Source of the DNA: the human T2T-CHM13v2.0 reference genome, Homo sapiens
Strand: one strand, 5' to 3'
Length of the DNA: 64,000 bases
Assembly: GCF_009914755.1 (NCBI RefSeq)
Contig: NC_060934.1
The notes beneath the pieces were generated by a model, which searched no databases, had not been told where the DNA came from, and saw only the letters and a program-made list of their open reading frames with translations. Both the position numbers and the translations under genes were made by a program. Shown piece after piece: positions 7,860-37,382 of the stretch (position 1 is the stretch's first letter; each line of letters opens with the position of its first letter).

Positions 7860-8315
7860 AATGCTAACAGCTTATCCAGTTATGCAACCTGTTGTTCTGT
7901 TCTGAAGAAAGGATTCTCGAGCAGGGCTGGAGTCCTGGCTGCCTGGAGGGACCTGTCGCATCTGATACTAATGAAGTGTTACTGTACTTTGACAAGTTTG
8001 CAGGCGTCTGTCTTCCAAGCCAGCTGACGTAATTCAGAGGAGAATAAGACCCTCCCACTTGCATTTGTTAATTGACTTTGATGAGCTCCTCTGCTCTGCC
8101 TAAGTGGTTCTGGAACAGAGAGCTGTTGTGATCCGACGAACTTTAGAAAGTCACACTAACTAAGACTACACACCCCAAGCCAGCAAGAAAAAGGAAAGCA
8201 GTTGCTATGCTGTTCAGCAAAGCAAGACTTGGCTGCCTTTTAGCTAGTCCTGAATTCTTGCTCCTGTGAAGAAAATTCCTGCTGGAGTGCTGGGCGCACT
8301 TGGAATTGGTCTAGC
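7860..8315 (+). promoter_or_regulatory. CACNB2: Putative beta2b promoter / 5'UTR
   Basis: Repeat-free, relatively GC/CpG-richer DNA directly upstream of the beta2b ATG. E-box CAGCTG 8021-8026 overlaps CRE-like TGACGTAA 8025-8032. TSS cannot be fixed from sequence. Confidence 0.6.
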
Positions 8316-8366
8316 ATGCTTGACAGACGCCTTATAGCTCCTCAAACTAAATACATTATTCCTGGG
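8316..8366 (+). CDS. CACNB2: CACNB2 alternative first coding exon of isoform Cavbeta2b (MLDRRLIAPQTKYIIPG)
   Basis: ATG CTT GAC AGA CGC CTT ATA GCT CCT CAA ACT AAA TAC ATT ATT CCT GGG translates to the known 17-aa beta2b N-terminus. A at -3, in-frame upstream stop TAG at 8241, donor GGG|GTAAGC at 8367 in phase 0. Confidence 0.97.
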
Positions 8367-33906: not shown

Positions 33907-34147
33907 GGCTGGGCAGAGTGGCTCACGCCTGTAATCCCAGCACTTTGGGAGGCTGAGGTGGGTGAATCACTTAAGGTCAGGAGTTCAAGACCAGCCTGGC
34001 CAACATGGTGAAACCCCGTCTCTAAAAATATAAAAATTAGCCGGAAATCACTTGAACTCGGGAGGCAGAGGTTGCAGCGAGCGGACATTGTGCCACCGCA
34101 CACTCCAGCCTGGGCAACAAAGCGAGACTCCGTCTCAAAAAAAAAAA
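33907..34147 (+). mobile_element. AluS with deletion in the right monomer
   Basis: TSD ctgattttgg. Confidence 0.93.
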
Positions 34148-34149
34148 GC

Positions 34150-34397
34150 TGATTTTGGCTGTTTATGGAATTTTCAGTCAGTTTGCCAGAGCATCATTTC
34201 CTGAAGTGCTTACAAATAGTCATTTTTTGTCTTTTGGTGTCTGAGAGCCTATTTTAAGAGCATTGCCAAGCGTGGGAAACTAGTATCACTATATTCCAGC
34301 TGTGGAAACTGTATCACTGTCATAATGCACTTGAACTTCCTATGAAAGGATTTCTTAGCGGACATGCTGAGAATTTACTTCGAGGTGTGTACGAAAC
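34150..34397 (+). promoter_or_regulatory. Putative promoter/5'UTR of the candidate MYYDDDEPSEV exon
   Basis: Unique DNA between an Alu tail and the ATG. Contains CGTGGGAA 34271, CAGCTG 34297 and a duplicated GGAAACT(A)GTATCACT. Confidence 0.4.
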
Positions 34398-34430
34398 ATG
34401 TACTACGATGACGATGAGCCTTCTGAAGTG
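34398..34430 (+). CDS. CACNB2: Candidate additional CACNB2 alternative first coding exon (MYYDDDEPSEV)
   Basis: gaaacATG with A at -3, in-frame TGA at 34368, 11 codons, then GTG|GTAAGA in phase 0 (same phase as the beta2b exon). Local CpG cluster. Peptide resembles the beta3/beta4a N-termini. Confidence 0.7.
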
Positions 34431-36968
34431 GTAAGAAACATATACCCATTGACATCTGACATTTTTCATCATTTTTTTAACCATTTCCAAGTTTGTTTTT
34501 AAACTTTCCACTAAAGTGCTTGTTGTCACTAACAGTAATATAAAACAAATAGTATTTTTTTTTTTTCCCTTAGGGACTAGCACAAATGTTGAAATACTTT
34601 GGGACAAAGTTTGAAATGAACACATTTTATAATTATATTATTTTGTTATATGCGGAATTATTTTTTGTGCTTGAACTTGGATTTTAAATAGTTTTCAATA
34701 TCTTCACACGTCTTCTGAAAAGGTATTTTTAAAAGGTTTTATAAGTGTAACTATAGACAGTTTACATTCTTTTTTAAAAAACTTGATTTCCTAGTGAAAT
34801 TATATCTGTTAAATATAGTTAAAAGTAATTGAATTGAGAATTGTATATGTTATAAAACTTTGGATGATTTGTAAATACTTAGTAAACTGTTAGTGAAACC
34901 TCACTGTAAGAAATGTTTCTCTTAAATGTTTAAAAAAGTATTTAAATTAAGAGTATATAACTAATTAGGATTCTGTATTGTTCTCAAGACATAAAATTAT
35001 GTAAAAATTCACATTTATCAATACACATAGCAAAACAGACAGTAAATGTAGTCACCTGTTCCTTGTATGCAAATAAAAGATGAAGCTAAACTTTAAGAGT
35101 TAGGGATACATTTTTGAAATTGTAGAAAGCTATATTAAACCATATACTTCTTTGAAATAGTATATAATTCAATTCAAATTTAATAATTATGTTTCTGCTT
35201 CCTTAATATCTTATTGAATTGTGATGTAATTTAATTTGATTTTAGAAAGACTTAAGAATTCTAAGTTTGACTGTTAAGAAACGAACCTATGTTAAAGAAT
35301 ATATTTTGGCCGTCTGGTCATATTCTACTGAAAACGAAATTCCCTTTTTAGGTGCGTTTGGGGGTACAGTAGAATGAGATTATTTCACTTTTTGTCATAT
35401 GGCCAGGAGGAAAGAAATTTCTTGAAAAGCAACTGAGCTCTCTCCTGTAAACACAGCAAGTTGAAATCGCACAGCTCCTAATTTGGTGTCTTTATTTCAA
35501 TCTTTGGAGTAAGATTATGAACAATAGCTATAATTCCATTCTGAGAGTTAAAAGTTTTCATTGTAAATTTCAAAATGGTCATTTCTACTAATATGGGCAT
35601 TATTTTTCCAAAGACCCACTTCTGTCTCTTGTTTTTCGCCCTCGGGTCACTGGCAATATGGAAAAAAACTTTCAAAAGAGTAGGATATGACTCCATTCCA
35701 GTGTTCCCAGGAACTGAAAGTGATTGCAAAATTATAAGCTTTCAGAATAACACAGAGAAAACTTCTACGAAACAAGTAATGCAGAAATGCATCCAATATT
35801 TAGGCCTTGCTCTCTATTTTTATTGCCTGCATCACATGTGGCTCATACAGAATTTTCAAACTATTTAAGAGTTGCATTTAAGCATATGCTACCAAAAAGG
35901 AAAAAAGTATTTTGAGGAATGGTGTTAACATTTTAGGGAAAGCATTCCTGAAAATGAGTTCCAGGTTTTGTTATTTTTTTAATAAAAGAATGTAAATGTA
36001 TACAGAAATTATTTCCTAGAATGTACTTGAAGGAGTATTTTAGGAATACAAACATTCATTAATTAACCCTCATGTGTTTAAAATATACACCTGTTATATA
36101 TGATTATGCACAAAAGCCAGTTTTTCATGAATAATTTGTGTCTTTTTTACATAATTTCAGAAACCATATGCTCTATAATGAAGAAAAAATATTTAAAGTA
36201 TGTAATCATGTTAAACAGTTACAGCATGAGTCACTCTATTTAAAAAAAAAGAGAGAGAACCAGTCTGCACGTGACAACAAGAACTTAAAGGATCTGGTGT
36301 TCATTTGAAATGTACTGGTAATTTAACATCACTGTAAATTCATTAACTTAGGTCATTCTGGTTATTGAGATCAAATTTGAAATTTTTCTTTTGTTAAGTA
36401 TTCAAATGTTTAAAAGCCCTGTAAACCAGATCAGAGTATTAGGACATAAATTTGAGTGTGTTTATTCCTTAAAATGAGGTCTACATAACTGTTTTAAAAA
36501 TTGCCTCTGGTAATTCTTCTAAGTCTTACAGTAAAATTTGCCAGAGGCGTACTATTTAAATTACAATTAAGCTATCAAATTTAAAAATTACTTTTTCATT
36601 TCTTTTAGTTCTGTTTTTCTCCCCGTGAATCAAATATTGTTTGTGCTACTAATAATTTTTTGTGGATTTGTCATTATTTTTGAATATTTAAAATATCCTG
36701 TACTTTGCTGTAGTATAGGTGGCAGTAGTCTAAACCTTGATCTTTTTAATGCATTCACATCAGGATTTTTATTTTTGTGGGAAGGTAAAAATCATTATTT
36801 TCCCCTAAGGTCAGTGATGTGGTCTTATTTTTAAGAAGAAACATGCATCAATAAGAAACATAAAAATAGGCTGCCTTTGAAAGGACTACTTTATTTAAGA
36901 AGATATATTTCCTTATTGTGTCTTGTTAGAGGGTGGAACTGGGCCATTAGTGGACAAAAGGGATAAGA

Positions 36969-37382
<414 letters not shown>

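What the first reader, a model, noticed from the sequence alone, without database searches (positions are those of the whole stretch)
34398..34436. Candidate non-canonical Cavbeta2 N-terminal exon MYYDDDEPSEV, a beta3/beta4a-like first exon inside the CACNB2 intron
Seen: gaaacATG TAC TAC GAT GAC GAT GAG CCT TCT GAA GTG|GTAAGA. It has a Kozak A at -3, an in-frame stop 30 nt upstream (TGA 34368) and a strong donor in phase 0, the same phase as the beta2b exon at 8366. Five CpGs fall within about 55 nt of otherwise AT-rich DNA, at the start of a roughly 2.8-kb stretch with no recognisable repeats. Known: CACNB2 isoforms are made by splicing alternative N-terminal exons onto a common exon starting GSADSYTSRPS. 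The N-terminus controls membrane anchoring and inactivation (beta2a palmitoylated MQCC.., beta2e polybasic MKATW..). Cavbeta3 starts MYDDSYVPGFEDSEA-GSADS and beta4a starts MYDNLYLHGIEDSEA-GSADS. Inference: MYYDDDEPSEV-GSADSYTSRPS shares their MY...acidic...SE(A/V) layout and may be the CACNB2 paralogue of that exon. It would give a short acidic, probably non-membrane-anchored beta2 isoform 6 aa shorter than beta2b. It may already exist as a predicted transcript model, which I cannot check.
Basis: partly seen in the sequence, partly recalled or inferred. Interest (0 to 1): 0.9.

Follow-up and report, generated by a model that had tools for sequence, protein, structure and literature searches.

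The report
Annotated ancestral-type CACNB2 first exon
This is a real alternative first exon of the human calcium-channel beta-2 gene that RefSeq already annotates; it is the human copy of a short acidic N-terminal exon found in beta-subunit genes from sharks to mammals, but papers on the mammalian gene seem not to mention it.

Summary
The sequence is exactly as described: ATG at 34398, 11 codons (MYYDDDEPSEV), a phase-0 GTAAGA donor at 34431, an in-frame TGA at 34368 and A at -3. The hub table shows that RefSeq already has a CACNB2 exon at 34105-34430 ending at this donor, so the exon itself is not new.

Public protein sets contain beta-2 isoforms in which an 11-residue first exon joins the common GSADSY exon. 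They come from clouded leopard, blue whale, turtle, skink, frogs, newt, teleosts (including the cloned zebrafish beta2.1_tv1), sturgeon and sawfish. A profile built only from the non-mammalian copies ranks the human peptide 1st of 1369 ATG-started open 11-mers in the window. Aligned from the splice junction, it matches the last 11 residues of the CACNB3 exon 1 and CACNB4 beta4a peptides read from this genome.

The peptide has no cysteine pair and no basic residues. I infer a cytosolic, beta2b/beta3-like isoform.

Usage in human tissue is untested. Four upstream ATGs and a 5' end inside an Alu argue for weak translation.

Verdict: already known as annotation, uncharacterised in mammals, moderate interest.

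The parts
34105..34430 (+). Alternative first exon of CACNB2 as annotated by RefSeq (293-nt 5' leader plus 33-nt coding part)
   Evidence: The hub gene table lists 34105-34430 under 'exons of other transcripts'. Its 3' end coincides with the donor read. No AG precedes 34105, which fits a transcript start rather than an internal exon.
34398..34430 (+). Coding part: 11 codons, MYYDDDEPSEV, net charge -5, ending in phase 0
   Evidence: Ranks 1st of 1369 window 11-mers, and 2nd of 6135 overall, on a profile of non-mammalian beta-2 orthologues. Top of 45 mini-exon candidates by similarity to the beta3/beta4a peptides. Net charge.
34431..34436 (+). 5' splice donor GTAAGA. With the last exon G it gives G|GTAAG, six contiguous matches to the consensus.
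   Evidence: The paralogous exons end ...SEA|GTGAGT (CACNB3) and ...SEA|GTAAGT (CACNB4).
34368..34370 (+). In-frame TGA 30 nt upstream of the ATG. It closes the frame, so 34398 is the first possible start of the long ORF.
34364..34411 (+). Upstream ORF (15 codons plus stop, context gcggacATGc) that overlaps the main ATG. Three further uATGs lie at 34165, 34325 and 34342. All would lower translation from 34398 if transcripts really start at 34105.
   Evidence: One search lists the ATGs and their frames.
33908..34148 (+). Alu element with poly-A tail. Its last ~44 nt form the annotated 5' end of the exon.
   Evidence: Read. Identified by eye from the recalled Alu consensus; no repeat library was run.

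Best explanation
Window 34105-34430 is a genuine alternative first exon of CACNB2 with its own transcription start. Its 33 coding bases (MYYDDDEPSEV) splice in phase 0 onto the common exon that begins GSADSYTSRPS, which lies 34.8 kb downstream at window coordinate 69279, outside the window. The product is a beta-2 subunit with an 11-residue, strongly acidic N-terminus.

The exon is the human orthologue of an 11-codon 'MY-type' first exon found in beta-2 genes of cartilaginous fish, ray-finned fish, amphibians, reptiles and other mammals. The set includes zebrafish beta2.1_tv1. The exon is also the paralogue of CACNB3 exon 1 and of the CACNB4 beta4a exon. This makes it the beta-2 copy of the ancestral short N-terminal exon of Cav-beta genes.

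The peptide lacks the cysteine pair of beta2a and the basic residues of beta2e. I infer that the isoform is not membrane-anchored and behaves like beta2b, beta3 or beta4a, supporting channel trafficking while allowing fast voltage-dependent inactivation.

Shown here: the sequence, the splice phases, the annotation and the orthologue/paralogue series. Inferred: the actual exon join in human RNA, translation from 34398, localisation and gating effect.
For: 1. Sequence and phase. ATG 34398, 11 open codons, GTAAGA donor and upstream in-frame TGA. The CACNB2 common exon sits at chr10:18421279-18421404 with acceptor ...ctctccag|GGTTCGGCAGACTCC, phase 0.

2. Annotation. The hub table gives a RefSeq exon at 34105-34430 ending at the same base.

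3. Orthologues. Searching with the common exon (3711 proteins at E<=0.001, best 120 listed) and with residues 1-53 of a frog isoform (2543 at E<=0.001, best 120 listed) gave 233 proteins. A strict pattern finds an MY-type N-terminus directly before the common exon in at least 74 of the 233. Examples:
- Neofelis nebulosa isoform X9: MCDDGSEHSEV
- Balaenoptera musculus: TYDDGSEHSEV
- Pelodiscus sinensis X3: MYLYGSDDYEV
- Tiliqua scincoides: MYLYDSEDYEG
- Xenopus tropicalis: MYVYASEESDE
- Rana temporaria X7: MYLYCSEESDT
- Pleurodeles waltl X8: MYLHDNEDIEE
- Danio rerio 'beta subunit 2.1_tv1': MYLSTSEESDL
- Polyodon spathula: MYHYGSEESDV
- Pristis pectinata: MYLYGREEPEE
All are 11 residues, as in human.

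4. Independent statistics. A position matrix built from 23 distinct non-mammalian beta-2 11-mers scores the human peptide at 12.1 bits. That is rank 2 of 6135 ATG-started open 11-mers in about 310 kb (both strands) and rank 1 of 1369 in the window. The only higher scorer has no GT donor.

5. Paralogues read from this genome. CACNB3 has MYDDSYVPGFEDSEA|GTGAGT 4.4 kb upstream of its GSADSY exon. CACNB4 has MYDNLYLHGIEDSEA|GTAAGT about 90 kb upstream of its GSADSY exon. Only these two exons and the human beta-2 peptide reach alignment score 21 or more among the 6135 11-mers. In the junction-anchored alignment, Tyr2, Glu7, Ser9 and Glu10 are shared by all three. Across the 28 distinct 11-mers the columns are M 27/28, Y 23/28, acidic 27/28 at position 7, S 23/28 at position 9 and acidic 27/28 at position 10.

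6. Function, by analogy. Passages of PMC6960213 and PMC9307272 state that beta3, beta4 and beta2b-d are not N-terminally anchored and do not slow inactivation, whereas palmitoylated beta2a and polybasic beta2e do. The 11-mer has no Cys, Lys or Arg.

7. CpG retention. There are 5 CpGs in 87 nt, against about 0.9 expected at the window-wide rate (Poisson p about 0.003, my hand calculation, post hoc).
Against: No human RNA or protein data could be examined. The only evidence of transcription is the hub's annotation row, which gives no accession or model type, so the transcript could be a prediction.

The annotated leader holds four upstream ATGs. One uORF (34364-34411) has a purine at -3 and overlaps the main ATG. 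The main ATG has T at +4.

The annotated 5' end lies in a primate-specific Alu, so the promoter is not obviously conserved.

Mammalian copies are much more diverged than fish and frog copies. Human positions 3-6 and 8 differ from the cat and whale sequences and from the consensus. The blue-whale record starts with T rather than M. The one bird record (Pavo cristatus) has a different 17-aa N-terminus, MQHKGRHLYSGSSPEEN. No rodent or other primate MY-type isoform appeared among the 233 proteins seen, but only the best 120 of thousands were listed in each search.

A direct word search with the human peptide (43-aa stop-to-stop ORF) found 2 candidates, none scoring E<=10. The human protein was therefore not retrieved.

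The field's isoform lists (beta2a-e, plus beta2i) do not include this N-terminus.
Confidence: 0.78

Rival explanations
1. The exon is a true homologue of the vertebrate MY-type exon, but in humans it is a decaying relic. It is transcribed weakly, perhaps from an Alu-associated start, and is poorly or never translated, so it makes no physiologically relevant beta-2 protein.
For: Four uATGs lie in the annotated leader, including a uORF that overlaps the start codon. The 5' end lies inside an Alu. Mammalian sequences have drifted: human shares 6 of 11 residues with the cat and whale records, the whale record lacks the Met, and positions 3-6 and 8 are off consensus. Published mammalian isoform panels treat beta2a-e as 'all' N-terminal variants, and reviews add only beta2i. 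No rodent copy was seen among the 233 proteins.
Against: The ATG, the 11-codon length, the open frame, the phase-0 GTAAG donor and the conserved Tyr2, Glu7, Ser9 and Glu10 are all intact in human. Five CpGs are retained in 54 nt of otherwise CpG-poor DNA. RefSeq carries the exon (hub table). Absence from older RT-PCR panels is expected, because their primers were designed for the known exons.
Confidence: 0.19
2. A chance short ORF followed by a GT, picked up by an automatic gene model. The likeness to beta3/beta4a would be coincidence.
For: The bare pattern is common: 45 such mini-exon candidates in the window. An unrelated 11-mer in CACNB3 intron 1 (L011:8223) scores even higher on the beta-2 profile. 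Eleven residues is too short for a formal database E-value.
Against: Rank 1 of 1369 in the window on a profile built without any mammalian sequence. It is the only non-paralogue reaching score 21 among 6135 11-mers. Length, phase and junction are identical to the orthologues in more than 70 database proteins. The annotation end at 34430 is independent (hub table). The high-scoring CACNB3 intron 11-mer lacks a donor.
Confidence: 0.03

Closest known systems
CACNB3 exon 1 (MYDDSYVPGFEDSEA, read from G000 chr12:48780955)
   Same: An ATG-containing first exon that splices in phase 0 straight onto the GSADSY exon. It is acidic (net -5). It shares Tyr, Glu, Ser and Glu at junction-anchored positions -10, -5, -3 and -2. 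It has no membrane-anchoring residues.
   Different: It is 15 rather than 11 codons, with four extra N-terminal residues. It is the only first exon of its gene and lies 4.4 kb, not 34.8 kb, from the common exon. It has a GC-rich context, where the beta-2 exon sits in AT-rich intron.
CACNB4 beta4a exon (MYDNLYLHGIEDSEA, G000 chr2:152425583 minus strand); the beta4a A domain has a solved structure, PDB 2d46
   Same: An alternative first exon deep in a large intron (about 90 kb upstream of the common exon), used in place of the long two-exon N-terminus. It has the same phase, a GTAAG donor and the same conserved Y...E.SE motif.
   Different: It has 15 codons. It has been characterised experimentally and a structure is solved. 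The beta-2 exon has neither.
Zebrafish beta2.1 transcript variant 1 (Ebert et al. 2008, PMC2365960; database protein P0168 named 'calcium channel beta subunit 2.1_tv1', N-terminus MYLSTSEESDL)
   Same: An 11-codon first exon of a beta-2 gene joined to the GSADSY exon, sharing M1, Y2, E7 and S9 plus an acidic residue at position 10 with human. It was cloned by 5' RACE (four tv1 clones; section 5 of the paper).
   Different: [quoted passage not shown] Equating that exon 1 with the MY-type exon is my inference from the tv1 record and from its presence in Tetraodon and Takifugu; the figure that shows the sequence is not held. Human shares 4 of 11 residues with it.
Human beta2b exon (window 8098-8366; MLDRRLIAPQTKYIIPG)
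   Same: A short, phase-0 alternative first exon of the same gene, 26 kb upstream. It encodes a non-anchored N-terminus.
   Different: The peptide is unrelated (basic and hydrophobic, 17 aa). It is a canonical, functionally tested isoform.

Membership tests
Short ('Cav-beta B' / exon-2 type) alternative N-terminal first exons of Cav-beta genes, MY-type subclass (beta3 exon 1, beta4a exon, fish and frog beta-2 11-mer) | An ATG-containing exon whose coding part ends in phase 0 and can join the phase-0 acceptor of the common GSADSY exon | tested here: met
   Donor after codon 11. Acceptor cag|GGT TCG GCA GAC at chr10:18421279. The join itself was not observed in RNA.
Short ('Cav-beta B' / exon-2 type) alternative N-terminal first exons of Cav-beta genes, MY-type subclass (beta3 exon 1, beta4a exon, fish and frog beta-2 11-mer) | Lies inside the gene, on the sense strand, upstream of the common exon | tested here: met
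   The window is intronic to CACNB2 on the + strand (hub table). The exon lies 34.8 kb upstream of the common exon and between the beta2b exon (8316) and the beta2e exon (window coordinate about 68387).
Short ('Cav-beta B' / exon-2 type) alternative N-terminal first exons of Cav-beta genes, MY-type subclass (beta3 exon 1, beta4a exon, fish and frog beta-2 11-mer) | Junction-anchored peptide motif: Tyr at -10, acidic at -5, Ser at -3, acidic at -2, and an acidic overall charge | tested here: met
   Human has Y2, E7, S9 and E10, with net charge -5. Column counts over the 28 distinct 11-mers are Y 23, acidic 27, S 23 and acidic 27. Position -4 is acidic in 27 of 28 but is Pro in human.
Short ('Cav-beta B' / exon-2 type) alternative N-terminal first exons of Cav-beta genes, MY-type subclass (beta3 exon 1, beta4a exon, fish and frog beta-2 11-mer) | Orthologous exon of the same length in beta-2 of other vertebrates | tested here: met
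   11-aa N-termini in beta-2 records of a felid, a whale, a turtle, a skink, 7 amphibian species, many teleosts, sturgeon, paddlefish, sawfish and a skate. Synteny was not testable, because no other vertebrate genome is on hand.
Short ('Cav-beta B' / exon-2 type) alternative N-terminal first exons of Cav-beta genes, MY-type subclass (beta3 exon 1, beta4a exon, fish and frog beta-2 11-mer) | Used in human transcripts and translated | not testable with these tools
   Only the hub's RefSeq row is available, with no accession or evidence type. No RNA-seq, CAGE, Ribo-seq or proteomics tool was on hand.
Membrane-anchored beta-2 N-termini (beta2a palmitoylated; beta2e polybasic; beta2i hydrophobic) | A Cys-Cys pair at positions 3-4, or a cluster of Lys/Arg, or a long hydrophobic stretch | tested here: not met
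   MYYDDDEPSEV has no Cys, Lys or Arg and no hydrophobic run. Compare MQCCGLVHRRRVRVSY, MKATWIRLLKRAKGGRLKNSDIC and MLVKLLLTASVLYVAMPKSPKGKNVSW in database records. The anchoring roles are taken from passages of PMC9307272 and PMC11938310.

The most novel reading that the evidence does not exclude
Human beta-2 has a functional, tissue-restricted isoform with the ancestral MY-type acidic N-terminus. This is the counterpart of beta3 and beta4a, and of an equivalent beta1 exon still present in turtles, sturgeon and sharks. The mammalian literature has overlooked it: the exon class was called teleost-specific in 2008, and isoform panels that claim to cover 'all' N-terminal beta-2 variants do not measure it. 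On this reading, all four vertebrate Cav-beta genes inherited both a long and an MY-type short N-terminus. The shortest beta-2 N-terminus would then also be a natural test of the reported length-dependence of Cav1.2 modulation.
Probability: 0.35. Interest if true: 0.5.

Novelty: already known. Interest (0 to 1): 0.35.

Why it matters
CACNB2 N-terminal variants decide whether the beta-2 subunit is membrane-anchored and how fast Cav1 and Cav2 channels inactivate. The gene is also a risk locus for arrhythmia and psychiatric disease.

If this exon is used in human tissue, three things follow:
- Quantitative isoform panels built on beta2a-e under-count cytosolic beta-2.
- Variants in 34398-34436 would need a coding or splice interpretation.
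- The evolutionary picture becomes simpler: one ancestral short acidic first exon retained in beta1 (non-mammals), beta2, beta3 and beta4.

The exon itself is already in RefSeq. The gain is therefore interpretive (orthology and paralogy, and a correction of the 'teleost-specific' label), not the discovery of a new element.

Tried and rejected
1. Peptide strings in the literature. The human 11-mer, its 5-mer start, junction strings and orthologue strings gave 0 relevant papers. The control strings for the beta3 N-terminus were also not found, so these searches have little power, because alignments sit in figures.

2. RefSeq accessions recalled from memory as possible carriers of the exon gave 0 papers. 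I could not establish which accession holds the exon.

3. A general CACNB2 / alternative first exon / long-read search returned nothing specific in the 20 papers listed of 491.

4. A direct database search with the human peptide failed at first because the query was under 40 aa. As a 43-aa stop-to-stop ORF it gave 2 word-sharing candidates, none at E<=10. Eleven residues cannot reach significance in 5.8 billion sequences.

6. Papers not held: Ebert et al. beta4 paper (PMC2575957), Seitter et al. 2023 and Takahashi et al. 2003. Seitter 2023 defines 'exon 2E' and may list further N-terminal exons. I saw it only through review passages.

7. I checked whether 'exon 2E'/beta2i is this exon and rejected the idea. 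The review describes that N-terminus as hydrophobic. A hydrophobic 27-aa N-terminus in the database maps to chr10:18311025, 41 kb upstream of the window.

8. I looked for an MY-type exon upstream of human CACNB1 and found none in 20 kb.

9. I did not run structure or complex prediction. An 11-residue tail would not give a decisive result.

10. The prokaryote-oriented tools (promoter scan, Rfam, phage and plasmid searches) were not used, as they are not relevant to a human intron.
Full report
**1. The observation**

Window 34398-34430 reads ATG TAC TAC GAT GAC GAT GAG CCT TCT GAA GTG, which translates to MYYDDDEPSEV. It is followed by GTAAGA. There is an A at -3, a T at +4, and an in-frame TGA at 34368.

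The beta2b exon in the same window (ATG 8316, 17 codons, donor after 8366) also ends in phase 0.

Five CpGs fall within 54 nt (34359-34412). CpG observed/expected is 1.35 in 34350-34436 against 0.27 for the whole window.

A whole-genome search with window 34149-37200 found non-self matches only from query position 2808 onward.

**2. Is it more than chance?**

The bare pattern is not. The window has 45 stretches of 'ATG, 6-30 open codons, phase-0 GTRAG', 22 of them on the + strand.

Two things set this one apart. First, the hub's gene table lists a RefSeq CACNB2 exon at 34105-34430, which ends exactly at this donor. Second, the peptide is unusual:
- It is the top candidate of the 45 by similarity to the beta3/beta4a peptides (score 21, next best 15).
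- Among 6135 ATG-started open 11-mers in about 310 kb of this genome (both strands), only the true CACNB3 and CACNB4 exons and this peptide reach score 21.

**3. Gene context, read from the window's own assembly**

A Pfam PF12052 search of the genome located the common GSADSY exon of all four Cav-beta genes. The CACNB2 copy is at chr10:18421279-18421404, which is window coordinate 69279 and lies outside the window. Its acceptor is ...ctctccag|GGT TCG GCA GAC, phase 0. The 11 codons therefore join it in frame across a 34.8-kb intron.

The beta2e exon (MKATW...SDIC) lies 0.9 kb upstream of the common exon, at window coordinate about 68387.

The paralogous short first exons were also found in this genome. 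CACNB3 has MYDDSYVPGFEDSEA|GTGAGT 4.4 kb upstream of its common exon. CACNB4 has MYDNLYLHGIEDSEA|GTAAGT about 90 kb upstream of its common exon.

**4. Orthologues**

The large protein collection does hold vertebrate records. A search with the 42-aa common exon returned 3711 proteins at E<=0.001, with the best 120 listed. Among them were frog beta-2 isoforms with an 11-residue N-terminus in front of GSADSY.

A second search, with residues 1-53 of one of these (Eleutherodactylus coqui isoform X2), returned 2543 proteins, again with the best 120 listed. Of the 233 proteins seen in all, at least 74 carry such an N-terminus by a strict pattern, and a few more were seen by eye.

Examples, with names as given by the sources:

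| Species / record | N-terminus |
|---|---|
| Neofelis nebulosa X9 | MCDDGSEHSEV |
| Balaenoptera musculus | TYDDGSEHSEV (no Met in the record) |
| Pelodiscus sinensis X3 | MYLYGSDDYEV |
| Tiliqua scincoides | MYLYDSEDYEG |
| Xenopus tropicalis | MYVYASEESDE |
| Rana, Lithobates, Aquarana | MYLYCSEESD(E/T) |
| Pleurodeles waltl | MYLHDNEDIEE |
| Many teleost beta-2a records | MYHSGSEESDL and close variants |
| Danio rerio 'beta subunit 2.1_tv1' | MYLSTSEESDL |
| Polyodon spathula | MYHYGSEESDV |
| Acipenser ruthenus | MYRCDSEESDV |
| Pristis pectinata, Rhinoraja longicauda | MYLYGREEPEE |

Beta-1 records of turtles, sturgeon and sharks carry the same kind of exon (MYLYWLDDSEE, MHLYGLDDSEL, MNVE+MYLYGIDDSEV).

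A position matrix built from the 23 distinct non-mammalian beta-2 11-mers uses no human or mammalian input. It scores the human peptide at 12.1 bits. That is rank 1 of 1369 in the window and rank 2 of 6135 overall. The single higher scorer (L011:8223, in CACNB3 intron 1) has no donor.

**5. Alignment**

Anchored at the splice junction and without gaps, human beta-2 shares Tyr2, Glu7, Ser9 and Glu10 with the last 11 residues of both the beta3 and the beta4a peptides, 4 of 11 each. Across the 28 distinct 11-mers the columns are M 27, Y 23, acidic 27 at position 7, S 23 at position 9 and acidic 27 at position 10.

However, the Met-Tyr of beta-2 corresponds to residues 5-6 of beta3/beta4a. The four extra residues of the 15-aa forms have counterparts in cyprinid beta-2a (MFID-) and shark beta-1 (MNVE-).

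**6. What is in print**

Ebert et al. 2008 (PMC2365960; I read the outline, sections 5, 6 and 12, and passages) cloned zebrafish beta2.1 variants. [quoted passage not shown] The database record named 2.1_tv1 starts with the MY-type 11-mer. That this is their exon 1 is my inference, because the figure with the sequence is not held.

Dawson et al. 2014 (PMC3972191, passages) describe the long ('A') and short ('B') N-terminal forms as older than vertebrates. They list beta2a, beta2b, beta2e, beta3 and beta4a as the short forms, and say vertebrate beta-1 has only the long form.

Passages of PMC6960213 speak of 'all N-terminal beta2 splice variants (beta2a-beta2e)'. PMC9307272 assays the same set. 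A 2025 review (PMC11938310, passages) adds beta2i, with a hydrophobic 'exon 2E', citing Seitter et al. 2023, which I could not read.

That hydrophobic N-terminus matches a 27-aa type seen in the database. It maps to chr10:18311025, 41 kb upstream of the window, so it is a different exon.

None of the ten literature searches turned up a description of the mammalian MY-type exon. The peptide-string searches among them have low power, because even the control strings for beta3 were not found.

**7. How it most likely works**

Shown: an annotated first exon with an intact start codon, frame and donor, and a phase-compatible common exon. The exon belongs to a conserved family of orthologues and paralogues.

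Inferred: transcription from its own start, splicing to the common exon, and translation from 34398. The product would be a beta-2 subunit whose variable N-terminus is 11 residues long with net charge -5. It has no Cys pair, no basic cluster and no hydrophobic run.

By analogy with the non-anchored beta subunits (beta2b-d, beta3, beta4; passages), it should be cytosolic and should permit fast voltage-dependent inactivation. Ebert et al. (section 12) cite a report that N-terminal length alone influences the size of Cav1.2 modulation. This would be the shortest beta-2 N-terminus.

The paralogous beta4a N-terminal domain has a solved structure (2d46). I did not analyse it.

**8. Reasons for caution**

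- No human expression data could be consulted, and the hub row does not say whether the model is curated or predicted.
- The annotated leader has four upstream ATGs. One opens a 15-codon uORF (34364-34411) that overlaps the start codon.
- The annotated 5' end sits in an Alu tail.
- Mammalian copies are far more diverged than fish or frog copies. The whale record lacks the Met, the one bird record differs, and no rodent copy was seen.
- A relic with little protein output therefore remains a live alternative.

**9. Verdict**

The element itself is already known: RefSeq annotates the exon, predicted orthologous isoforms exist in many species, and the zebrafish orthologue was cloned.

Two points appear not to be stated in the literature I could reach. 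The human exon is the orthologue of the 'teleost-specific' beta2.1 exon. It is also the beta-2 member of an MY-type exon family shared by all four Cav-beta genes. Its use and function in mammals are untested.

Interest is moderate at 0.35.

Noticed in passing
Outside the window: G000 chr10:18311025-18311114 (+), about 41 kb upstream of window base 1: A further beta-2 N-terminal exon type, 27-28 aa and hydrophobic, ending ...KGKNVSW before GSADSY. It is present in frog, wallaby, macaque and mouse records. Residues 1-30 of the macaque protein map here at 93% identity, E 1.1e-6. It probably corresponds to the 'exon 2E'/beta2i N-terminus described in review passages.
   Followed up: partly
L011:8223-8255 (+), CACNB3 intron 1, 1.7 kb upstream of the GSADSY exon: The ATG-started open 11-mer MYLYQSEWSSA scores 14.2 bits on the beta-2 MY-type profile, higher than the human beta-2 exon, but it is followed by TTGCCT, not a donor. 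It is either chance or the remnant of a duplicated exon.
   Followed up: partly
Database proteins P0161, P0167, P0178-P0182, P0185-P0188, P0193, P0194, P0198, P0199; loci L031 and L032 (20 kb upstream of the human CACNB1 common exon): Beta-1 records of turtles, sturgeon and sharks have an MY-type short first exon. A 2014 paper states that vertebrate beta-1 has only the long N-terminus. No ATG-open counterpart was found in the 20 kb upstream of the human CACNB1 common exon, which suggests loss in the mammalian line.
   Followed up: partly
Window 34165, 34325, 34342, 34364: Four upstream ATGs lie in the annotated 5' leader. The ORF from 34342 stays open to the exon end in another frame. The ORF from 34364 (15 codons) overlaps the main start codon.
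   Followed up: yes
Window about 33908-34148 (+): An Alu with an apparent internal deletion lies directly upstream. The RefSeq exon start at 34105 falls in its 3' part, so the annotated transcript start is in primate-specific sequence (identified by eye).
   Followed up: no
Database protein P0049 (Pavo cristatus, 424 aa): The one bird record with a short N-terminus reads MQHKGRHLYSGSSPEEN before GSADSY. Its last 11 residues loosely resemble the MY-type exon (LYSGS, as in frog YLSGS) but have no Met at the expected place. This may reflect a shifted start codon in birds or a model error.
   Followed up: no
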